A DNA stretch of 32,000 nucleotides from Nostoc sp. CHAB 5824 (GCA_020829665.1 JAIVFT010000026.1:39799-71798); one strand, 5' to 3'. Positions 942 to 10,989 are shown, numbered from the stretch's first letter. A program made the numbers and translations. Notes: a model not told the origin generated them from the sequence alone.

Positions 942-1265
942 TCATGCACTAGCAGCTAGCTCTGATTCAGGTAGAAAAGCTAAAACGATATCTGTTGGAG
1001 AAACACCCATCCCTATCAAATCTTGGGTTATGCCGTGTTCTATGCCGTCATATTCTATATAAACCTTACCATTTTGTAGCGTGACATAAATTAGATTTCC
1101 TCGAACTCGCCGTCCTCTATCCCAACCCACTTGCATCAAAGCATACCTATCGTGCGTTTCATCAAAGATTGGCTCAAGTCGAATATCTCCATGCGAGGGA
1201 CGAAGTTTAGCATATTGTATAATTATCTGCTTGACTATTTCTCGATAGGTCGTGTTGGTATCCAT
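942..1265 (-). CDS. xisI: XisI family protein
   Basis: 107 aa. The Y..IVK...YA, MQVGWD, G..YIE.D and DIVLAF pattern is typical of XisI. It lies immediately downstream of, and overlaps, an xisH-like frame. Confidence 0.85.
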   Translation of the reverse strand: MDTNTTYREIVKQIIIQYAKLRPSHGDIRLEPIFDETHDRYALMQVGWDRGRRVRGNLIYVTLQNGKVYIEYDGIEHGITQDLIGMGVSPTDIVLAFLPESELAASA

Positions 1266-1699
1266 TGTATGACCTCTACTGTTTTTAAATTGATGATAAT
1301 TAATTTCAGTGGCATTTCTGTAATTACTAGTTCGCCAATTGGTTCATTGAAAATATTGCTATAGATAGTATCTGTAATCGCTAAATAGAGTTCTCGCTCT
1401 GGTTCTATTCTACTAAGTAAAAGCTGATAGAGTGTATACTGTCCAATCGCTTGTTCTAAATCAGCAATAACAGATTGACCGCGAAAATCTTTAATTTCAA
1501 TTGCTATTCGCTGATTTTCTTTTGTTGCACCGATAAAATTTCCTTGAGCTTGGTTAACTGTTGATGATAAAGTAGCAGCCAAATCTATAAATAAGAATCT
1601 ATCCCCGTAAGAAATAACATAAGGAGCGTCAGTTATTTTCCAACCATCTTTAATAATCGCTTGCTAGACTAGATTGTGAATGCTATCTCTTGGTGGCAT
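1235..1699 (-). pseudogene. xisH: XisH family gene interrupted by an in-frame TAG (complement of 1664-1666)
   Basis: Translation from the ATG at 1699-1697 gives MPPRDSIHNLV*QAIIKDGWKITDAPYVISYGDRFLFIDLAATLS..., continuous with the track ORF 1235-1582. The N-terminus matches the XisH pattern (..KD..H..V..A..KDGW.IT.DP) except for the stop at codon 12. Confidence 0.75.
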
Positions 1700-3877: not shown

Positions 3878-4107
3878 GGTTAGTTATGAGTGCGATCGCT
3901 ATTAATACTAAAAACCATTCTTAGCCCAGTTGTGCTAGATAATGTTTAGATTTTCGTTAAGCTAGGTAGAAATTGCCGAGTTATTTAGTTTACATTGATT
4001 TTCATCTAGCAAAAGCAAGCGATCAAGAAATGTAAAGACGTTTTCCAACCCATCTACCGGGAATGTTGCAATATTGTAAGTAGTCTTGACAAGCAAAACT
4101 TGAAACT

Positions 4108-4752
4108 ATGCCCCTCACTGTCGAAGCTAGTACTCTATCTCTCAACGATGTTCATCGCTTTCTCAAATTAGAAAAGCTTTCAAATGGTTCATTTACAAAT
4201 TTCTTAAGGCTAGAACTACTCTCTGACTTTGAACAGCAGGATTTATTACGAATCAGAGACGACTTTGATCGTTATTTAAATGCAGGTAAAATTTCTGAAG
4301 GTTTGGTTAAATTTATAACGATCGCACCATTAATGCGGTTAGCGGGATTTTACGATGTGCCGATTCGGTTGACAATGGAAGATAGCATTGCGATCGCAGT
4401 CGAAGATGAAGACAGAAGAATTACCGGACGGATGGATATTTTAGCAATTAATAGTCCTCAAAGTAATGTTGCGCCGCCATTTTGGGTTCTAGTGATTGAA
4501 ACAAAAAATAGTTCGGTTAATGTGATTGAGGGTTTACCTCAATTACTCACTTATGCTTTTAAAAGTTTAGATCAACAGCCATCAGTTTGGGGTTTGGTAA
4601 CTAATGGACAGCTTTATCAATTTGTTTATTTAAGACATGACAACCAGTCAACTTATGAGTTAATGCCATTATTAAATTTGAGTCAATCTCCAGATGCAAT
4701 TGAGTTATTGCAAGTTTTCAAAGCCATTTGTAAGTTACCAAATTTTCAGTAA
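4108..4752 (+). CDS. PD-(D/E)xK nuclease-like protein (HsdR N-terminal-domain-like)
   Basis: 214 aa. GRMDILAI ... WVLVIETKN resembles a D...E-x-K nuclease core. The family assignment is from memory and needs an HMM check. Confidence 0.55.
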   Translation: MPLTVEASTLSLNDVHRFLKLEKLSNGSFTNFLRLELLSDFEQQDLLRIRDDFDRYLNAGKISEGLVKFITIAPLMRLAGFYDVPIRLTMEDSIAIAVEDEDRRITGRMDILAINSPQSNVAPPFWVLVIETKNSSVNVIEGLPQLLTYAFKSLDQQPSVWGLVTNGQLYQFVYLRHDNQSTYELMPLLNLSQSPDAIELLQVFKAICKLPNFQ

Positions 4753-4774
4753 ATAAATCGCGGAGCGATCGCTG

Positions 4775-5503
4775 ATGTCTGAACCTGCTACCTTAGAAAT
4801 CATCTCTGATAATATTTCAGAAGACGAAATTCTTTTTCCTCCTGGCGATATACTGAGTGACGAACCACCCTTGGAAAGTGACCTGCACCGTGACCAAATT
4901 GATTTACTGATTCGCATACTTAAATTGTGGTGGCGAGATAGGCAAGATTTCTATGCTTCTGGCAATTTGACGATTTACTACAGTCCTAACCAGAAAAAAT
5001 CAGAACATTTCCGTGGCCCAGACTTTTTTGTAGTTTTGGGAACCCAGAAAAAAGACCGTAAGAGTTGGGTAGTTTGGCAAGAAGACGGCAAATACCCTAA
5101 CCTAATTGTGGAAATTTTGTCAAGCTCAACGGTAACAGTTGATAAAGGTTTAAAAAAACAAATTTACCAGGATACCTTCCGTACACCAGATTATTTCTGG
5201 TTTGACCCTGTAACAATGGAACTTCAGGGATTTCATTTAGTTGATGGGAAGTATCAAGAAATCCAAGTAACCACTGATGGACGTTTGTGGAGTCAGCAGT
5301 TAGAACTTTATTTGGGAGTTTATGAAGGTAAATTAAGATTCTTCACTACTGAAAATCAACTGATAGTATCATCAGAAGAATTGGCCCAACAAGAACGTTT
5401 ACGTGCCGAACAGGCAGAAGAACGTGCCCAACAAGCAGAGCAAGAAATTACTCGACTGCGGGAGGCTTTACGTACACAGGGCATCGACCTAGAAAATATT
5501 TAA
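4775..5503 (+). CDS. Uma2 family (DUF820) endonuclease with a C-terminal coiled-coil tail
   Basis: 242 aa. GPDFFVV ... IVEILSSST..DKG.K...Y is typical of Uma2. The tail EELAQQERLRAEQAEERAQQAEQEITRLREAL is common in cyanobacterial members. It starts 22 nt after the previous gene. Confidence 0.85.
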   Translation: MSEPATLEIISDNISEDEILFPPGDILSDEPPLESDLHRDQIDLLIRILKLWWRDRQDFYASGNLTIYYSPNQKKSEHFRGPDFFVVLGTQKKDRKSWVVWQEDGKYPNLIVEILSSSTVTVDKGLKKQIYQDTFRTPDYFWFDPVTMELQGFHLVDGKYQEIQVTTDGRLWSQQLELYLGVYEGKLRFFTTENQLIVSSEELAQQERLRAEQAEERAQQAEQEITRLREALRTQGIDLENI

Positions 5504-5595: not shown

Positions 5596-6282
5596 TTGCA
5601 AGCAAAAGAGATTAAGGATAAGCTAAAGTCCCTTATCGAGCAAGCCTCCTCGATAGATCATAATTTAGCGAGAAGATTAGATGAGATCAATCGTTGGGTA
5701 AAAGACATCAAACCAGGTTCCCTGACTGCAAAACCCTTTGTCACTGCCTTTCTGTTAGAGGTAATTACGGATTCTACAATTTGGCTGATCATCAAATCTT
5801 TACCTTCAGAAGAACAAAAAGCAAAGTTTGAGCTTATGACACCGATTGAGAGATATTGGTATGGTTATCTCTTTCCCAAATGGTTCAATGCAAGTGACTC
5901 CAAGTTTTATATTTGGAAACAAAAATTGATGGCAGGCGAATTTAATCAGGTAGATGATGATATTATTAAATTAATAGCCCAAGATATTGTTCAGAGAGAA
6001 GGTAGTTTTTGGCAGCGTTATATAGCCGACCTTTCAATGGCAACAGATTTAATTGTTAGTCGTAACAATCAACCACTGTGCATTCAAGTTACCAGTGTTT
6101 CTGAAGAACTTAATCACCAAAAGTACGAAGCTTGGCAAAATACACTGCGATCGTGGGAAATCGAGAGGGGGTTGTTCTTAAGTTACAATCCCAAAGATGC
6201 TAATTTTGTCAACCAGTTAGTCAACGTGGCCCTGTATAACAGTGATTACCTTTCTGGTGGCAAATATTTAAAATTTTCGTGA
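5596..6282 (+). CDS. Hypothetical protein (228 aa), TTG start
   Basis: Long ORF with no recognisable motif. The first in-frame ATG lies far inside the ORF, so the TTG at 5596 (preceded by aguaggg) is the best start. Its stop overlaps the next ORF. Confidence 0.5.
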   Translation: MQAKEIKDKLKSLIEQASSIDHNLARRLDEINRWVKDIKPGSLTAKPFVTAFLLEVITDSTIWLIIKSLPSEEQKAKFELMTPIERYWYGYLFPKWFNASDSKFYIWKQKLMAGEFNQVDDDIIKLIAQDIVQREGSFWQRYIADLSMATDLIVSRNNQPLCIQVTSVSEELNHQKYEAWQNTLRSWEIERGLFLSYNPKDANFVNQLVNVALYNSDYLSGGKYLKFS

Positions 6283-6788
6283 ATTTTCAGGAATTTAATA
6301 TTTCAGATTTGTGTTATAGCCTACATACCTACGTGCTAATTAGAGCTTTTATGGCTAACAAAAGAGAAACTCACTGCAACAATCAAGTAGATACATTTGC
6401 GGAAGCTTTAGCAACAGCCCGAAAAATGCAGCAAAACTGGCTAACTTACGGGGTTAATTTTGTAAATTTTTACGTTGAAGATGTAGATGGAGACTGGCTA
6501 GAAACCTGGGGACATGATGAAATCTTAGATAATTCTCAATTAGATACTATCAAAGAATTTTTGGTAAGTAATGATAGTGTGGCTGTTAAAGTAAGACAGC
6601 ATTTAGGAGAGCGATCGCTGTTTGATTTTGCAGTAAACTTAGATGAATCTTGGAGAATTTCCCAAACCAATGACAGGCTATTTGCTGTGAGAAACTTGTT
6701 AGCTGGTGAAGGAAATGGCATTGATGATGACATCAGGCTCTTGAATTTAGTAAATTGTCTGCTGGTAAAGTTGGCAGAAATTTTGTAA
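6279..6788 (+). CDS. Hypothetical acidic protein (169 aa from the GTG start; an alternative ATG at 6352 gives MANKRETH...)
   Basis: ORF in the same orientation. The GTGA overlap with the upstream stop suggests coupling. No recognised domain. Confidence 0.5.
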   Translation: MNFQEFNISDLCYSLHTYVLIRAFMANKRETHCNNQVDTFAEALATARKMQQNWLTYGVNFVNFYVEDVDGDWLETWGHDEILDNSQLDTIKEFLVSNDSVAVKVRQHLGERSLFDFAVNLDESWRISQTNDRLFAVRNLLAGEGNGIDDDIRLLNLVNCLLVKLAEIL

Positions 6789-6895: not shown

Positions 6896-7147
6896 TTAAT
6901 AATCTTTAAGATGTGCAATCTTTATCACTGTTACTAGCAAGGGTTGATCCTCAATCTGGTAAATAATGCGGTATTCACCCAGAAGAACCTTATACAACCG
7001 TTCAGTATCCTTCAATGGGTGAGCGTCTTCTGAACGTGGATTTAATGCTAGTTTATCTAACTTTTGTGCTAGTCGTTGCTGCACCTCTGAATCCAATTCT
7101 GTAATTGTCTGCACAGCCGAAGGTGCTAATGTTACTTGGTAGCTCAT
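6896..7147 (-). CDS. RelE/ParE family type II toxin
   Basis: 83 aa. ...L.NP......PLKD...LYKVLLGEYRIIYQIED..LLVTVIKIAH is the typical RelE/ParE C-terminal core. There is a 4-nt ATGA overlap with the upstream gene. Confidence 0.85.
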   Translation of the reverse strand: MSYQVTLAPSAVQTITELDSEVQQRLAQKLDKLALNPRSEDAHPLKDTERLYKVLLGEYRIIYQIEDQPLLVTVIKIAHLKDY

Positions 7148-7413
7148 ATCCTTAGCTCCCTTTTGATGTCTTCAAAGGGTGTTGTCCCCAACCCTGCAAT
7201 TTCCTCTAGTACCTTATAAGCATCTCTTACATCAGCCTCATCTAACCTTGCTTCAATTAGCTCATGCATCTGCTCTGTTGAGGTAATTTCAATCCCTGGT
7301 TCTTCTCTAAGTTTGTCCGTTAACGCATGAAAAGCTTCTTGATCGTCTCGATGTTGCAACACATAAGCTCTTAACTCTTGTTTAGTCATCCCTTGAAAAT
7401 TTGCCTTAGTCAT
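7144..7413 (-). CDS. Cognate antitoxin candidate (89 aa)
   Basis: The call rests on position and on translational coupling to the RelE-like gene. The N-terminal MTK.NFQ.MT..ELRAYVL.HRDD.EAF resembles a small cyanobacterial family (DUF6887-like, from memory). Confidence 0.65.
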   Translation of the reverse strand: MTKANFQGMTKQELRAYVLQHRDDQEAFHALTDKLREEPGIEITSTEQMHELIEARLDEADVRDAYKVLEEIAGLGTTPFEDIKRELRI

Positions 7414-7586
7414 AAATATCTTACCCTCCCATTTGGCAATATTTCTACTTCAAAGCTTTGTCCAGCCAGAATGTAAATGCGTGTTGTCCGTTCATCTAAT
7501 CTCACCAAGTAAATTGATAGGTACATCTGAGTTAAATCCTGACACACCTTAAATAATTCAATTGCTTGTTCATTAGTTGGTTTCAT
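7410..7586 (-). CDS. Unlisted 58-aa ORF coupled by an ATGA overlap to the antitoxin gene
   Basis: My own translation: MKPTNEQAIELFKVCQDLTQMYLSIYLVRLDERTTRIYILAGQSFEVEILPNGRVRYL*. The stop (7412-7410) overlaps the antitoxin ATG (7413-7411). The ORF is below the 60-aa cutoff of the track. Confidence 0.5.
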   Translation of the reverse strand: MKPTNEQAIELFKVCQDLTQMYLSIYLVRLDERTTRIYILAGQSFEVEILPNGRVRYL

Positions 7587-7884: not shown

Positions 7885-8301
7885 TTGGAACCAATAACAG
7901 CTAGTGCGATCGCAACTCTCGCTTTTACTAAAGTATTTGAGACAACCATCGAGAAATTTACTGAAGCAGCCCTTGTTAAAATGGATGAGCTGCGAAAAAA
8001 GATTTGGGGTAAATTACGGGGAAATTTGAAAGCAGAAACAGCCCTCGTTGCTGCTGAAAAAGGCTCGAAACCAGATTTAGATAGGGTTGCTGCTTACTTG
8101 CAGATAGTTTTACACGAAGAACCGGAGTTTGCTAAAGAAGTAGAAACACTGGCTCGTGAAATTGAGGCTGGTAAGATAGTAGACAAAAGCAATATGACTC
8201 AAATCAACCAAGACAATGCCAAGGGATGGCAAACTAAGGTTGAGGGTGGAACTGTTTATCAAGGCGAGATTAACATTCATCATGCACCCCCCAATTCTTG
8301 A
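7885..8301 (+). CDS. Bell-like (HeLo-analogous) small effector candidate with a C-terminal amyloid-signalling-like motif
   Basis: 138 aa, TTG start preceded by aagguagga. The N-terminal helix is hydrophobic (MEPITASAIATLAFTKVF) and the body is helical. The C-terminal NQDNAKGWQTKVEGGTVYQGEINI is repeated at the N-terminus of the next gene. Confidence 0.65.
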   Translation: MEPITASAIATLAFTKVFETTIEKFTEAALVKMDELRKKIWGKLRGNLKAETALVAAEKGSKPDLDRVAAYLQIVLHEEPEFAKEVETLAREIEAGKIVDKSNMTQINQDNAKGWQTKVEGGTVYQGEINIHHAPPNS

Positions 8302-8312
8302 ATTGAGCCATC

Positions 8313-10445
8313 ATGAACCAAAGCAACCAAGATAAAGCCAAGGGCTGGCAAAATAAGGTTGAGGGTGGAACTGTTTATCAAGGCGATATTCGTATCTACA
8401 ATTCCCCTACTGGGCAGTTATACTCATCTCCTCCAAATAATATTCCTTATCGGGGTGTTGCGAACTTTGTCGGGCGGAATGAGAAACTTGTAGAACTACA
8501 TAAAAAATTGCTGCAAAATGACAACGCGGCAATTTTGGCTGTGGCTGGTATGGGAGGAATGGGTAAAACTGAACTGGCGACACAATACGCACAGCGCAAC
8601 AAAGTCAATTATCCTGGTGGGCTTTGCTGGTTAGATGCCAGAAAACTAGATTTAGCAGCAGAGATTGTGGAGTTTGCTAAGTTTTACATGAAACTGGAAG
8701 TACCGCGAACCTTATTGACTTCCCAGGAACAAGCAAAATGGTGCTGGCATAATTGGCAACCACAAACAGGACTAGTATTAGTAGTATTGGATAATGTTGA
8801 CGATGTGACTAACTGGGAAAATTCTCGCCAAGTTCTGCCAACAGATAACCGCTTCTGTATATTGATGACAACTCGGTTGCGAAATCTCGGTTCAACAGTT
8901 CAACAGATAACTTTGAATGAACTCTCACCAAACGATGCTTTAAATTTGTTGACAGCTTTGTTGGGTGAGAATGATAGGCGGGTGCAACGGGAACCACAAA
9001 CGGCAGCAAATTTATGTAAATGGCTGGGATATCTGCCTTTAGGTTTGCAATTAGTCGGCGCGTATTTGGCAGAAGATCCAAATTTGTCTTTGACAGAGAT
9101 TTTACAGCAATTACCAGCCCAGCAAAAATCTCAATTGGAAGCCGTATTTGAATTAAGCTGGCAACAACTCGATTCTATAACACAGCGTGTCGGTGAGTTG
9201 TTGAGTTTATTCGCCCCAGATATCATTCCTTGGCAAATAGTTGAATCTGTTAGTCAGCAGTTAAATTGGGCGAAGGTAGATGTTGACGAGGCGAGAAAGC
9301 AACTTTATAAGCGTCATTTAATTCAAAGCGTAGCAGAAGGAGAAAGTTGCTATAAAATTCATCCTTTAATTAGGGAGTTTTTGCAAGGAAAACAGGTAGA
9401 GTCAAAAATCGCCAACGAGTTACAACAAGCGATTTCCACAATTTTTGTAGAAATTGCTAAGACAATACCTGACTCTCTCACTATTGAGCATATCAAGTCA
9501 GTGCAACTGGCAATTCCCCATTTGGCTGAGGTTGCACAAAATCTGACTGCTGCTGTACAGGATGAAGATTTAATTTACATTTTCGTTGGCTTGGGTAGAT
9601 TCTATGAAGAACAAGGTTTATATGCCCTAGCAGAATCTTGGTGTCAGCAATGTTTATCAACGGTGCAAACTCGTTTGGGAGAAGAACATCCCAATGTTGC
9701 CACCAGCTTCAACAACCTGGGAGCAATTTACCAATCTCAAGGACGCGATGACCAAGCCGAACCGCTTTATCAGCAAGCTTTAGCACTGAGAAAACGCCTG
9801 CTGGGAGAAGAACATCCCTCTGTCGCCACCAGCCTAGCCTGCTTGGCAAATATCTACTCTTCTCAAGGACGCTACGACCAAGCCGAACCGCTTTATCTGC
9901 AAGCTTTAGAACTGAGAAAACGCCTGCTGGGAGAAGCAAATCCCTCTGTCGCCACCAGCCTGAACAACCTGGCATTACTCTACGAATTTCAAGGACGCTA
10001 CGACCAAGCCGAACCCCTGTTTCTGCAAGCTTTAGAACTTAATAAACGCCTGCTGGGAGATGCACATCCCTCTGTCGCCACCAACCTGAACAACCTGGCA
10101 AGTCTCTACAAATCTCAAGGACGCTACGACCAAGCCGAACCCCTGTTTCTGCAAGCTTTAGAACTTAATAAACGCCTGCTGGGAGAAGCACATCCCCATG
10201 TCGCCACCAGCCTGAACAACCTGGCAAATCTCTACAATTCTCAAAGACGCTACGACCAAGCCGAACCCCTGTATCTCCAAGCTTTAGAAATTCGTCAGCA
10301 GGTGTTTGGGGTAAATCATCCCAATACGGTTACTGTTCGGGAAAATCTAGAAAATCTTCAAGCTCAAATGAGTGCTAACCGTAAAGTTAAGAATAATGCT
10401 AATAATAATTCCTTGTGGGAGAAGTTTTTAGGGTTATTTGAGTGA
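8313..10445 (+). CDS. NLR-like STAND ATPase: N-terminal signalling motif, NB-ARC domain, then TPR (TPR_12-type) repeats
   Basis: 710 aa. Walker A is GMGGMGKTELA and Walker B is LVLVVLDNVDD, with NB-ARC-like LPLGLQLVGAYL. At least five 42-aa TPR units follow (HP.VATSLNNLA.LY.SQGRYDQAEPL.LQALEL.KRLLGE). Confidence 0.9.
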   Translation: MNQSNQDKAKGWQNKVEGGTVYQGDIRIYNSPTGQLYSSPPNNIPYRGVANFVGRNEKLVELHKKLLQNDNAAILAVAGMGGMGKTELATQYAQRNKVNYPGGLCWLDARKLDLAAEIVEFAKFYMKLEVPRTLLTSQEQAKWCWHNWQPQTGLVLVVLDNVDDVTNWENSRQVLPTDNRFCILMTTRLRNLGSTVQQITLNELSPNDALNLLTALLGENDRRVQREPQTAANLCKWLGYLPLGLQLVGAYLAEDPNLSLTEILQQLPAQQKSQLEAVFELSWQQLDSITQRVGELLSLFAPDIIPWQIVESVSQQLNWAKVDVDEARKQLYKRHLIQSVAEGESCYKIHPLIREFLQGKQVESKIANELQQAISTIFVEIAKTIPDSLTIEHIKSVQLAIPHLAEVAQNLTAAVQDEDLIYIFVGLGRFYEEQGLYALAESWCQQCLSTVQTRLGEEHPNVATSFNNLGAIYQSQGRDDQAEPLYQQALALRKRLLGEEHPSVATSLACLANIYSSQGRYDQAEPLYLQALELRKRLLGEANPSVATSLNNLALLYEFQGRYDQAEPLFLQALELNKRLLGDAHPSVATNLNNLASLYKSQGRYDQAEPLFLQALELNKRLLGEAHPHVATSLNNLANLYNSQRRYDQAEPLYLQALEIRQQVFGVNHPNTVTVRENLENLQAQMSANRKVKNNANNNSLWEKFLGLFE
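9681..10310 (+). repeat. Five tandem 126-bp units encoding 42-aa TPR repeats
   Basis: Units start at 9681, 9807, 9933, 10059 and 10185, each exactly 126 nt apart. Long stretches are identical at the nucleotide level (for example caaggacgctacgaccaagccgaacc). Confidence 0.9.
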
Positions 10446-10785: not shown

Positions 10786-10989
10786 AATAAATGACACCCC
10801 GAATTCAATAAACGACACCCCGAATTCAATAAACGACACCCCGAATTCAATAAACGACTTCCCGAATTCAATAAACGACTTCCCGAATTCAATAAACGAC
10901 ACCCCGAATTCAATAAACGACTTCCCGAATTCGATGAACGACACCCCGAATTCAATGAACGACTCCCCGAATTCGATAAACGACACCCC
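10786..10989. repeat. 21-bp tandem array: 9 full copies plus 1 partial copy, each with a GAATTC site
   Basis: The unit is gaattcaataaacgacacccc, with copies starting at 10801, 10822, 10843, 10864, 10885, 10906, 10927, 10948 and 10969. Two main variants occur (cgacacccc and cgacttccc). Confidence 0.95.

What the first reader, a model, noticed from the sequence alone, without database searches (positions are those of the whole stretch)
7885..10445. Small effector and NLR-like ATPase sharing a terminal 24-aa motif: candidate Bell/BASS amyloid-signalling cell-death module
Two + strand genes are separated by only 11 nt. The 138-aa upstream protein has a hydrophobic N-terminal helix (MEPITASAIATLAFTKVF) and a helical body. 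It ends with NQDNAKGWQTKVEGGTVYQGEINI (nt 8206-8277). The 710-aa downstream protein begins with NQDKAKGWQNKVEGGTVYQGDIRI (nt 8325-8396), which is 20/24 identical. An NB-ARC domain (GMGGMGKT, LVLVVLDNVDD) and TPR repeats follow. A short G/Q/N/V-rich, beta-prone motif sits at the C-terminus of a small membrane-targeting protein and at the N-terminus of the adjacent NLR. That arrangement defines fungal HET-S/NWD2-type signalling. It also defines the Bell/BASS-NLR pairs predicted computationally in filamentous Actinobacteria and Cyanobacteria (Dyrka, Saupe and colleagues, 2020). In those systems the activated NLR templates the amyloid fold of the effector and triggers cell death. To my knowledge the biological trigger and role in a cyanobacterium have not been shown. 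The pair sits in a nuclease- and TA-rich island, which fits an abortive-infection or allorecognition function.
Basis: partly seen in the sequence, partly recalled or inferred. Interest (0 to 1): 0.88.

Follow-up and report, generated by a model that had tools for sequence, protein, structure and literature searches.

The report
Bell/BASS9 effector paired with NLR sensor
This Nostoc gene pair is a new example of an already catalogued bacterial "amyloid-signalling" module: a small helical predicted cell-death protein and an NLR-type sensor that share a short matching motif, whose amyloid behaviour and biological role in cyanobacteria have never been tested.

Summary
ORF 7885-8301 (138 aa, TTG start) and ORF 8313-10445 (710 aa) are 11 nt apart. 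They share a 24-aa motif, 20/24 aa and 63/72 nt identical. The large protein is an NB-ARC/TPR STAND NTPase. The small one is a five-helix domain with a disordered tail.

The motif is class BASS9 of Dyrka et al. 2020. Two proteins 70-74% identical to the small protein (AFZ02241.1, BAZ41012.1) are listed there as Bell-side BASS9 entries. The window comes from Nostoc sp. CHAB 5824.

New details from this work:
- The pair is syntenic in 17 Nostoc genomes.
- It is the best-matched BASS9 pair seen here.
- The two motif copies share codons far above chance, which points to DNA-level copying.
- The Nodularia orthologous pair has switched motif subtype in both partners (8 co-varying positions).
- The same Bell domain also occurs fused as Bell-BASS9-NB-ARC-TPR in one polypeptide.
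- The TPR sensor varies in repeat number and evolves fastest.

Amyloid formation by BASS9, toxicity of the small protein and the trigger remain untested. Verdict: a new member of a known kind, of moderate to low interest.

The parts
7885..8301 (+). Gene for the 138-aa Bell-domain effector carrying a C-terminal BASS9 motif (TTG start, TGA stop); MCC5647234.1
   Evidence: ORF found. The exact protein is in NCBI with the same start. It has 268 homologues, nearly all 130-150 aa and, where named, cyanobacterial. Pairwise dN/dS of the helical domain against Nostoc orthologues is 0.05-0.21, so it is a real gene under purifying selection.
7885..7956 (+). N-terminal helix 1 (residues 1-24, MEPITASAIATLAFTKVFETTIEK), with an acidic residue at position 2: the 'MEPIS'-type signature of Bell/Hell domains and the proposed membrane-inserting helix
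   Evidence: The AF2 model has helices over residues 6-24. This is the most hydrophobic segment of the protein (KD 1.53 over 15 aa). I9, L12, K16 and E19 are invariant in the family. The signature is described.
7885..8178 (+). Bell helical domain (residues 1-98), five helices
   Evidence: AF2 with a 55-sequence alignment gives helices 6-24, 27-44, 48-58, 62-78 and 80-95 with pLDDT 75-90. A profile of this part alone finds 444 clusters, including N-terminal fusions to NB-ARC/TPR.
8206..8277 (+). Bell-side BASS9 motif (residues 108-131, NQDNAKGWQTKVEGGTVYQGEINI) in a tail predicted to be disordered
   Evidence: Sequence. Class bass_09 in Table S2 of Dyrka 2020. The tail (residues 100-138) has pLDDT below 50.
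8302..8312 (.). 11-nt intergenic spacer; the two genes are probably co-transcribed
   Evidence: In the published set, 57% of collinear pairs are 10 bp or less apart. No convincing internal promoter or terminator was found.
8313..10445 (+). Gene for the 710-aa NLR-type STAND NTPase (BASS9 - NB-ARC - TPR); MCC5647235.1
8325..8396 (+). NLR-side BASS9 motif (residues 5-28, NQDKAKGWQNKVEGGTVYQGDIRI); a direct repeat of 8206-8277, codon-aligned, offset 119 nt
   Evidence: 16 of 18 identical non-M/W residues use the same codon, against 7.9 +/- 2.0 expected.
8484..9128 (+). NB-ARC nucleotide-binding oligomerisation domain (residues 58-272). Motifs: Walker A 8547-8570, Walker B 8772-8804, sensor-1 TTR 8859-8876, GLPL-like 9027-9047. 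An MHD-like IHPL lies further on at 9357-9380.
   Evidence: Pfam PF00931, E 3e-19. Motif positions.
9504..10382 (+). TPR sensor region (about residues 398-690), including a tandem array of 126-nt (42-aa) units at 9676-10289
   Evidence: Pfam TPR_12 and TPR_10, six units each. TRF finds period 126, 4.9 copies, 87% matches. Orthologues range from 549 to 1088 aa through differences in repeat number. Pairwise dN/dS is 0.5-1.8 here against 0.2-0.5 in the NOD.

Best explanation
This is a two-gene, probably co-transcribed Bell/BASS9-NLR amyloid-signalling module of the kind catalogued by Dyrka, Saupe and colleagues. The proposed mechanism has five steps.

1. The 710-aa NB-ARC/TPR protein is the sensor. 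Its 42-residue TPR repeats bind an unknown ligand.
2. Ligand binding releases the NB-ARC switch, and the protein oligomerises.
3. Oligomerisation brings the N-terminal BASS9 segments (residues 5-28) together. They nucleate a cross-beta fold.
4. That fold templates the nearly identical, otherwise disordered BASS9 tail (residues 108-131) of the 138-aa Bell protein.
5. Conversion of the tail destabilises the five-helix bundle and frees helix 1 (MEPITASAIATLAF...). Helix 1 attacks the membrane and kills the cell. In a Nostoc filament that would sacrifice one infected or compromised cell.

Shown here: the gene arrangement, the domain architecture, the motif class, homology to published Bell/BASS9 members, purifying selection on the effector, co-variation of the two motif copies across lineages, and rapid evolution with repeat-number polymorphism in the sensor.

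Inferred from relatives (BASS1 and BASS3 fibrils and prion behaviour; Bab/Agp BASS11 abortive infection in E. coli; fungal HET-S/NWD2): amyloid formation by BASS9, templating, membrane attack, cell death and a defence role.
For: - Architecture: NB-ARC plus TPR in the large protein, with intact Walker A, Walker B, sensor-1, GLPL and MHD-like motifs. The small protein is a helical bundle with a disordered tail.
- Motif class: MTQxNxDNAKGWQTKVEGGTAYI is class bass_09 in Table S2 of 10.1101/2020.01.06.895854.
- Homology: P0006 is AFZ02241.1 and P0005 is BAZ41012.1. Both are listed there as Bell-side BASS9 entries, and they are 70% and 74% identical to the small protein.
- Family behaviour: a conserved N-terminal domain carries interchangeable C-terminal motif types.
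- Domain logic: the Bell-only profile hits proteins in which the domain sits directly N-terminal of NB-ARC/TPR, so it behaves as an NLR effector domain.
- Co-variation across 15 representative pairs: own-partner score 83.8 against 59.3 for non-partners (0 of 50,000 permutations reached it). BASS9 pairs only: 79.8 against 73.4, p = 0.001.
- Co-variation in the closest orthologue outside the clade: the Nodularia pair (Bell 68%, NLR 67% identical) has 8 of 28 motif positions changed identically in both partners, while the glycines stay invariant.
- In most lineages the matching residues use codons at chance frequency, so the match is held at the protein level.
- Within-pair identity is 83%. Experimentally cross-seeding BASS pairs are 43-56% identical.
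- The composition is Q/N/G/V/I-rich (56%) with no P or L, as described for BASS motifs.
- Bab/Agp shows that a Bell-type domain plus a BASS motif executes abortive infection.
Against: - No experiment exists for BASS9. The held literature reports tests only for BASS1, BASS3 and BASS11.
- The small protein matches nothing in Pfam, NCBIfam or PADLOC.
- Its model has no significant structural neighbour in the PDB (best Foldseek E 2.8), and its profile finds no PDB sequence. Similarity to HeLo, MLKL or Bab folds is therefore not demonstrated here.
- Helix 1 is only moderately hydrophobic.
- Within the 18 closely related Nostoc pairs, within-genome matching is barely better than between-genome matching (19.4 against 19.0 of 25; p = 0.07). 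That level offers little variation to test.
- The neighbourhood is not a recognisable defence island.
- The function of Bell/NLR pairs was still described as 'to be elucidated' in late 2024. A 2026 review offers only a suggested defence role.
Confidence: 0.7

Rival explanations
1. The mechanism is the same, but the biological role is not antiphage abortive infection. The NLR would instead sense a non-viral cue and control allorecognition between filaments, developmental cell death (necridia or hormogonium release), or a check on symbiosis.
For: The close relatives are Nostoc genomes, most of them metagenome-assembled. The locus is chromosomal, syntenic and vertically inherited in 17 Nostoc genomes, with housekeeping genes directly downstream, and it is not in a mobile defence island. 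PADLOC sees no defence system in or around it. The fungal paradigm HET-S works in allorecognition. The authors of the family link it to multicellularity.
Against: The only bacterial Bell/BASS system with a demonstrated role is antiphage. A fast-evolving sensor with variable repeat number is what is expected of an immune receptor. Such a sensor would also fit allorecognition.
Confidence: 0.25
2. The shared motif is a conventional, non-amyloid docking tag. It would tether the small protein to the NLR in a stoichiometric complex, for example by beta-strand pairing. The small protein would be an adaptor or regulator, not a prion-templated executioner.
For: Nothing computed here distinguishes cross-beta templating from simple heterodimerisation. 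AF2 gives no structure for the tail. Fused Bell-BASS9-NB-ARC proteins keep the motif although no trans-signalling is needed there. That hints at a role in cis.
Against: Docking interfaces usually evolve towards complementarity. Here selection favours identity at the same positions in both partners, with invariant glycines and co-varying strand residues. That is what in-register parallel stacking predicts. The composition matches the published amyloid-motif bias. Every BASS motif tested so far formed fibrils and prions.
Confidence: 0.12
3. The similarity is only a by-product of a recent local DNA event, such as gene conversion or the splitting of a fused Bell-NLR gene with duplication of the linker. 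It would have no signalling function of its own.
For: The two copies share 63/72 nt and 16/18 codons, against 7.9 expected. Fused single-motif forms exist. One crossover between the repeats would interconvert the two forms.
Against: The pairing is conserved across genera. In most lineages the shared residues use codons at chance frequency (z 0-1.2), so the match is kept by selection on the protein. Bell-side motif dN/dS is 0-0.34. When the motif subtype changes, it changes in both partners. The arrangement recurs in 346 published pairs.
Confidence: 0.04

Closest known systems
BASS9 Bell/NLR gene pairs of cyanobacteria (Dyrka et al. 2020, Table S2), e.g. AFZ02241.1/AFZ02242.1 of Calothrix sp. 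PCC 6303 and BAZ41012.1/BAZ41011.1 of Calothrix sp. NIES-4101
   Same: The Bell domain is the same (70-74% identity over all 138 aa). The motif class is the same. The genes are collinear and adjacent, and the partner is NB-ARC/TPR.
   Different: The genus and clade differ (Nostoc sp. CHAB 5824 and 17 syntenic Nostoc genomes). The pair is much better matched: 19 of 23 identical in the published frame, by reading the sequences. All twelve BASS9 motif rows visible in the Table S2 excerpts (the nlr_20 member motif) score 9-13. There is DNA-level identity between the two copies, which the Calothrix pairs lack (z 3.3 against 0.5 and -0.3).
Bab/Agp of E. coli ECOR25 (BASS11; Ibarlosa et al. 2024 preprint)
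   Same: [quoted passage not shown] The motif is shared with the N-terminus of the adjacent sensor gene. This system is experimentally an abortive-infection system.
   Different: The sensor there is TPR-GreA/B-C-PIN, not an NB-ARC NLR. The motif is BASS11. The Babybell domain is shorter (about 80 aa). The pair lies in prophage defence hotspots. No sequence or fold match to any solved structure was detectable here.
HET-S/NWD2 of Podospora anserina and other fungal HeLo/Hell-NLR amyloid pairs
   Same: The logic is the same: adjacent genes, effector with a C-terminal motif, NLR with an N-terminal motif, and templating proposed to release an N-terminal membrane helix.
   Different: It is an analogue, not a detectable homologue. 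There is no HeLo, Hell or SesA Pfam hit. The fungal NLR is NACHT/WD. HET-S carries two pseudorepeats of the motif, whereas the protein here carries one.
'All-in-one' Bell-NLR proteins
   Same: They have the same Bell domain and the same NB-ARC/42-residue TPR body. P0217 (967 aa) and P0220 (957 aa) come from independent assemblies. The architecture is mentioned in the 2020 paper, where it was filtered out by length.
   Different: They are a single polypeptide with one BASS9 copy between Bell and NB-ARC. In the window the module is split into two genes with two copies.
Antiviral STAND NTPases (Avs/AVAST, bNACHT)
   Same: A STAND NTPase with a repeat sensor. Some of these carry the 'MEPIS' N-terminal motif.
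   Different: The NLR gets no PADLOC Avs or bNACHT hit, only a generic TPR model. The effector is a separate protein coupled through a shared motif.

Membership tests
Bell domain (Dyrka et al. 2020) | An alpha-helical domain of about 100 aa (predicted five-helix bundle), found in proteins of 120-140 aa | tested here: met
   The protein is 138 aa. The AF2 model has helices 6-24, 27-44, 48-58, 62-78 and 80-95 at pLDDT 75-90.
Bell domain (Dyrka et al. 2020) | An N-terminal hydrophobic helix with an acidic residue at position 2 or 3 ('MEPIS'-type signature) | tested here: met
   MEPITASAIATLAF has E at position 2 and is the most hydrophobic segment. The signature is described.
Bell domain (Dyrka et al. 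2020) | Sequence homology to the HMMER family seeded with ONI86675.1 | tested here: inconclusive
   No Bell profile is available, and Pfam, NCBIfam and PADLOC give no hit. The test is met indirectly: the protein is 70% and 74% identical to AFZ02241.1 and BAZ41012.1, which the authors list as Bell-side proteins.
Bell domain (Dyrka et al. 2020) | Also occurs as the N-terminal domain of NLR-architecture proteins | tested here: met
   The Bell-only profile hits P0217, P0220 and P0190, which have NB-ARC (and TPR) downstream.
Bell domain (Dyrka et al. 2020) | Membrane targeting and cell-death execution | not testable with these tools
   Shown only for Bab in E. coli. No structural match to HeLo, MLKL or Bab was found.
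BASS9 motif | Match to the BASS9 motif as listed in Table S2 (member motif nlr_20) | tested here: met
   The Bell side, MTQINQDNAKGWQTKVEGGTVYQ, differs at 3 of 23 positions from the listed MTQINQDNAKGWQTKVDGGTAYI, by reading the sequences. The authors' pHMM itself was not available.
BASS9 motif | Present at the C-terminus of a Bell protein and the N-terminus of an NB-ARC/NACHT protein encoded within 5 kb, usually collinear | tested here: met
   Residues 108-131 of 138 and residues 5-28 of 710; the genes are collinear with an 11-nt gap.
BASS9 motif | Matched motifs are kept and co-vary in related pairs | tested here: met
   The signal is weak within the shallow Nostoc clade.
BASS9 motif | Forms amyloid fibrils or prions, and the NLR side seeds the Bell side | not testable with these tools
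   The held literature reports no experiment on BASS9. Only BASS1, BASS3 and BASS11 were tested.
NLR / STAND NTPase (NB-ARC + TPR) | An NB-ARC domain with Walker A, Walker B, sensor-1, GLPL and MHD-like motifs, followed by repeats | tested here: met
   PF00931 at E 3e-19 and TPR_12 at E 2e-103. Motif positions.
NLR / STAND NTPase (NB-ARC + TPR) | Repeats with high internal conservation and variable number (42-residue TPR class) | tested here: met
   126-nt unit, 4.9 copies, 87% matches. Orthologues range from 549 to 1088 aa. The feature is described.
HET-S/HeLo and Hell (fungal) | HeLo or HeLo-like domain by profile | tested here: not met
   No Pfam hit, even at E up to 10, for this protein and five homologues. 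The relation is functional analogy only.
Avs/AVAST or bNACHT antiphage STANDs | Match to a PADLOC model of those systems | tested here: not met
   Only a generic TPR model hits the NLR, and nothing hits the small protein.

The most novel reading that the evidence does not exclude
The two BASS9 copies are codon-aligned direct repeats kept similar by DNA-level exchange. Recombination between them would interconvert 'split' (two-gene) and 'all-in-one' (Bell-BASS9-NB-ARC-TPR) forms. Gene conversion would be the way a lineage switches both partners to a new motif subtype at once, creating orthogonal signalling channels. Because the fused forms retain the motif, BASS would also act in cis, for example in cooperative assembly or in recruiting extra free effector.
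Probability: 0.3. Interest if true: 0.5.

Novelty: new member of a known kind. Interest (0 to 1): 0.3.

Why it matters
Bell/NLR amyloid-signalling pairs are the proposed prokaryotic counterpart of fungal HET-S/NWD2 signalling and, more loosely, of RHIM-based signalling in animals. Their function in filamentous bacteria is still untested, and BASS9 itself has never been shown to form amyloid.

This pair has several practical advantages as a test case:
- It has the highest within-pair identity of the BASS9 pairs examined.
- Its NB-ARC motifs are intact.
- It comes from a named strain.
- It has 17 syntenic orthologues with natural variation: differences in repeat number, truncated NLRs, and a Nodularia orthologue with a switched motif subtype.

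It does not change the concept, because the family, the motif class and the proposed mechanism are already published.

Tried and rejected
- Profile libraries for the small protein (Pfam, NCBIfam, PADLOC) gave no hits, even at E up to 1 in all three and E up to 10 in Pfam. No Bell or BASS model is in these libraries.
- The precomputed tag PF20701.5 on two homologues could not be reproduced. Neither could the UniRef name 'NACHT-NTPase and P-loop NTPases N-terminal domain' on three others.
- A PDB sequence profile search returned only chance hits, E 0.4 or worse.
- Foldseek of the AF2 model against the PDB gave a best E of 2.8. Plant CC-type domains (NRG1.1, NRC3) appear only at E 7-9, which is not evidence. 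No Bab structure was recovered.
- The promoter and terminator scan found no more sites than in shuffled sequence.
- A full-text search for the motif string in the literature found nothing. The motif was found only in the supplementary table.
- A regular-expression search for further BASS9 copies in the six frames of the window found none. The pattern was imperfect, because it also missed the NLR-side copy.
- I considered that the small ORF might be spurious. I rejected this because of purifying selection, 268 homologues and NCBI annotation.
- I considered that the fused Bell-NLR proteins might be read-through artefacts. I rejected this because they carry one motif copy, not two, and P0220 recurs as a 957-aa protein on at least 10 contigs from several sources.
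Full report
**1. The observation**

The first is 7885..8301 on the + strand (138 aa, TTG start, MEPITASAIATLAFTKVF...). The second is 8313..10445 on the + strand (710 aa). They are separated by 11 nt.

The Bell-side motif (nt 8206-8277, residues 108-131) and the NLR-side motif (nt 8325-8396, residues 5-28) are 20/24 identical in protein and 63/72 identical in DNA. They include a perfect 32-nt run.

I built an empirical null by aligning the 42-aa tail of each homologue against the six-frame translation of its own 5-8 kb locus. Where no partner exists, the best scores are 27-50. The window pair scores 130.

NCBI annotates exactly these two proteins, with the same TTG start, in Nostoc sp. CHAB 5824. 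MCC5647234.1 is called 'hypothetical protein' and MCC5647235.1 'tetratricopeptide repeat protein'.

**2. What the two proteins are**

The large protein has an NB-ARC domain at residues 58-272 (E 3e-19), followed by six TPR_12/TPR_10 units. Its motifs are all present:
- Walker A: GMGGMGKT
- Walker B: LVLVVLDNVDD
- sensor-1: ILMTTR
- GLPL-like: GYLPLGL
- MHD-like: IHPL

The small protein has no hit in Pfam, NCBIfam or PADLOC. It has 268 homologues, nearly all 130-150 aa and, where named, cyanobacterial. These share a conserved N-terminal domain of about 100 aa and carry at least three different C-terminal motif types.

AlphaFold2 with a 55-sequence alignment gives five helices: 6-24, 27-44, 48-58, 62-78 and 80-95, with pLDDT 75-90. 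The tail from residue 100 to 138 has pLDDT below 50.

Helix 1 is the most hydrophobic part of the protein, but it falls below a transmembrane threshold. This suits a helix buried in a soluble bundle.

Pairwise dN/dS of the helical domain against Nostoc orthologues is 0.05-0.21, so this is a genuine gene under constraint.

**3. It is a published family**

The supplementary Table S2 of Dyrka et al. 2020 (bioRxiv 10.1101/2020.01.06.895854) lists motifs of the form MTQxNxDNAKGWQTKVEGGTAYI as class bass_09. The entries include AFZ02241.1/AFZ02242.1 of Calothrix sp. PCC 6303 and BAZ41012.1/BAZ41011.1 of Calothrix sp. NIES-4101. An exact look-up shows that my hits P0006 and P0005 are those proteins. 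They are 70% and 74% identical to the window protein over its whole length.

The paper defines Bell as a helical domain of about 100 aa with a hydrophobic N-terminal helix and an acidic residue at position 2 or 3. It occurs in proteins of 120-140 aa next to NLR genes, mostly collinear and often 10 bp or less apart. All of this holds here. The 2024 preprint calls the N-terminal signature the 'MEPIS' motif. Here it reads MEPITAS.

**4. Tests in related loci**

A scan of species-representative genomes returned 80 loci.

*Synteny.* Seventeen Nostoc genomes carry the same locus in the same context, with about 90% nucleotide identity in both flanks. The ParE/DUF6887/DUF6888 cassette just upstream (6896-7586) is matched in four of them (L002, L003, L009, L015) and unmatched in most of the others.

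*Co-variation within the Nostoc clade.* Here the two motif copies hardly vary. Within-genome matching is only marginally better than between-genome matching (19.4 against 19.0 of 25 residues; permutation p = 0.07 for protein and 0.02 for DNA).

*Co-variation across 15 representative pairs from different lineages.* The own partner scores 83.8 on average, against 59.3 for other partners (0 of 50,000 permutations reached it). Among BASS9 pairs alone the figures are 79.8 against 73.4 (p = 0.001). The window pair is the best matched of all.

*The Nodularia harveyana pair.* This is the clearest case. It is the closest orthologue outside the Nostoc clade (Bell 68% identical, NLR 67% identical). It has a different motif subtype in both partners:
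- 8 of 28 positions are identical within each pair but differ between the pairs.
- 8 positions are invariant, including all three aligned glycine columns.
- Own-partner identities are 22 and 17 of 28.
- Cross-partner identities are 8 and 10 of 28.

Identity at the same positions, rather than complementarity, together with fixed glycines, is what in-register parallel stacking with beta-arcs would favour. This last point is my inference.

**5. DNA-level copying**

In the window, 16 of the 18 identical non-M/W residues in the first 25 motif positions use the same codon. Codon usage predicts 7.9 +/- 2.0. In the separate 32-residue alignment used for the cross-lineage comparison, the count is 17 of 21 against 9.7 expected (z 3.3).

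The excess is shared by the whole Nostoc clade: 249 of 314 codons are the same within pairs and 76% between genomes. The copying event therefore predates the clade.

Most other lineages are at chance (z -0.3 to 1.7). The exceptions are Nodularia (z 2.8) and L029 (z 2.1). I read this as follows. The match is normally held by selection on the protein. Now and then the motif is copied from one gene to the other. The Nodularia case suggests that such copying accompanies subtype switches. Seventeen pairs were tested, so only the window result clearly survives a multiple-testing correction.

**6. Split and fused forms**

A profile of the Bell domain alone (residues 1-98) finds 444 clusters (at 50% identity) among 1.84 billion representatives. 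Most are 125-155 aa. Several are long:
- P0217 (967 aa) and P0220 (957 aa) are Bell, one BASS9 copy, NB-ARC and TPR in a single polypeptide.
- P0155 is Bell-BASS9-CHAT-TRADD_N-TIR.
- Other fusions carry DUF900 or GUN4 domains.

P0220 recurs as a 957-aa protein on at least 10 contigs from several sources. The 2020 paper mentions 'all-in-one' Bell NLRs and filtered them out by length. My term search of the two papers found no mention of gene conversion and nothing about a motif retained inside the fused forms.

In the window the two copies are codon-aligned direct repeats 119 nt apart. A single crossover would therefore give an in-frame fusion of exactly this type. This follows from the coordinates. 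Whether it ever happens is untested.

**7. The sensor**

The TPR region contains a tandem array of 126-nt units (4.9 copies, 87% matches). Among Nostoc orthologues with a complete reading frame, the NLR ranges from 549 to 1088 aa because the repeat number differs.

Variation among 57 repeat units concentrates at positions 23, 33, 36, 37 and 13 of the 42-residue unit.

Crude pairwise dN/dS rises along the module:

| Region | dN/dS |
|---|---|
| Bell helical domain | 0.05-0.21 |
| Bell-side motif tail | 0-0.34 |
| NLR-side motif | 0.23-0.66 |
| NOD | 0.2-0.48 |
| TPR array | 0.5-1.8 |

This is the regime the authors describe for NLR repeats with high internal conservation. It points to a fast-evolving ligand-binding surface. 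Repeat shuffling makes these numbers approximate.

**8. Context**

- Upstream lie XisI/XisH, acetyl-CoA synthetase, a PD-(D/E)xK-like ORF, a Uma2-family ORF, two unknown ORFs and the ParE cassette.
- Downstream lie a 21-nt tandem repeat, TerC, nucleoside diphosphate kinase, arginine decarboxylase and other housekeeping genes.
- No known defence system is recognised by PADLOC.

The 'island' is a small variable stretch in a conserved chromosomal region.

**9. Mechanism and status of the evidence**

The best explanation is the published model:
1. Ligand binding to the TPR array triggers NB-ARC-driven oligomerisation.
2. The clustered N-terminal BASS9 segments nucleate a cross-beta fold.
3. That fold templates the Bell tail.
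4. Helix 1 is released, damages the membrane, and the cell dies.

Support from relatives:
- BASS1 and BASS3 motifs form fibrils and prions, and the NLR side converts the Bell side. The cross-seeding pairs tested were only 43-56% identical. The pair here is 83% identical.
- In E. coli the Bell-type protein Bab and its partner Agp, which share BASS11, form an abortive-infection system against phage T5. [quoted passage not shown]

Not shown for BASS9 or for any Bell/NLR pair: amyloid formation, toxicity, the trigger and the biological role. The 2024 preprint says the function of Bell/NLR pairs 'remains to be elucidated'. A review dated August 2026 still only says the data 'suggest' a defence role.

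Structure-based similarity to HeLo, MLKL or Bab could not be shown here. The authors themselves note that these folds have diverged almost beyond recognition.

**10. Verdict**

The system is a new member (Nostoc sp. CHAB 5824 and its clade) of a known, catalogued kind.

The modest additions from this work are:
- the very high within-pair identity, with evidence of DNA-level copying
- a clean case of co-variation between orthologous pairs
- fused forms that retain the motif
- sensor polymorphism in a syntenic set of genomes

Interest is moderate to low. The pair is a good experimental entry point, not a new concept.

Noticed in passing
window 10786-10989: A tandem repeat of a 21-nt unit (AATAAACGACACCCCGAATTC), 9.7 copies and 91% matches, lies in the intergenic region downstream of the NLR gene. 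It creates spurious repetitive ORFs on both strands. The region is conserved at 88-98% in several orthologous Nostoc loci. Its function is unknown.
   Followed up: partly
window 6896-7586 (- strand): A three-gene cassette: ParE toxin (6896-7147), DUF6887 (7144-7413) and DUF6888 (7410-7586). It is matched in L002, L003, L009 and L015 and unmatched in most other syntenic Nostoc loci. It is therefore an insertion/deletion polymorphism right next to the Bell gene.
   Followed up: partly
window 942-1582 (- strand) and 4108-5503 (+ strand): An XisI/XisH pair lies at 942-1582. Two adjacent nuclease-like ORFs follow further on: 4108-4752 matches a PADLOC PD_DExK model, and 4775-5503 matches Pfam Uma2 and PADLOC PDC-S03. 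ORFs 5596-6282 and 6279-6788 have no family hit.
   Followed up: partly
P0217, P0220, P0155, P0276, P0148, P0257: The same Bell domain occurs in several fusions: to one BASS9 copy plus NB-ARC/TPR (P0217, P0220), to BASS9-CHAT-TRADD_N-TIR (P0155), to a DUF900 hydrolase (P0276), and to GUN4-like domains (P0148, P0257). The GUN4 fusions are unexpected for a cell-death domain.
   Followed up: partly
L016 and L018 (NLR gene downstream of the Bell gene): The NLR reading frame is cut short in Nostoc sp. CCCryo 231-06 (236 aa, with an internal deletion relative to the window) and in Calothrix sp. NIES-4101 (232 aa). The Bell gene is intact in L018; in L016 its 5' end is cut off by the contig end. These may be decaying sensors or assembly errors.
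   Followed up: no
L001-L017, first codon of the Bell gene (locus position 4001 in most); window 7885: The Bell gene starts with TTG in the window and in 16 of the 17 Nostoc orthologues; in L016 the start is lost at the contig end. The Calothrix and most more distant homologues start with ATG. This may keep translation of a toxic effector low. It was not tested.
   Followed up: no
L001-L006, L008, L009, L011, L013, L015-L017, NLR residues about 79-86: Many orthologues have AMGGIGKT or AMGGMGKT where the window has GMGGMGKT in the Walker A motif: the first glycine is replaced by alanine. This is still within the [A/G]xxxxGK[T/S] consensus.
   Followed up: no
L030-L033, L035, L038, L040, L044, L049-L050, L056, L058-L059, L062-L064, L066-L067, L070-L072, L074-L077 and L079: Bell proteins carrying the other two C-terminal motif types (..STGYQTRVETE.GTTNIGGTHTH.. 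and ..QGQNVQNVYGGEA..APVIQGGSGH..) have no matching motif within about 4 kb on either side. Their partners, if any, are elsewhere in the genome.
   Followed up: no
L023, about 500 nt downstream of the Bell gene: A second Bell-type C-terminus (IHAGKIQDNSSMTQNNYDNAKGWQTKVEGGTAYIGD) follows the first Bell gene in Anabaena minutissima FACHB-250. This suggests tandem Bell genes rather than a Bell/NLR pair.
   Followed up: no
P0026, P0075, P0021, P0024, P0033: Two homologues carry a precomputed Pfam tag, PF20701.5. Three others carry the UniRef name 'NACHT-NTPase and P-loop NTPases N-terminal domain-containing protein'. Neither could be reproduced with the Pfam copy available, even at E up to 10.
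   Followed up: partly
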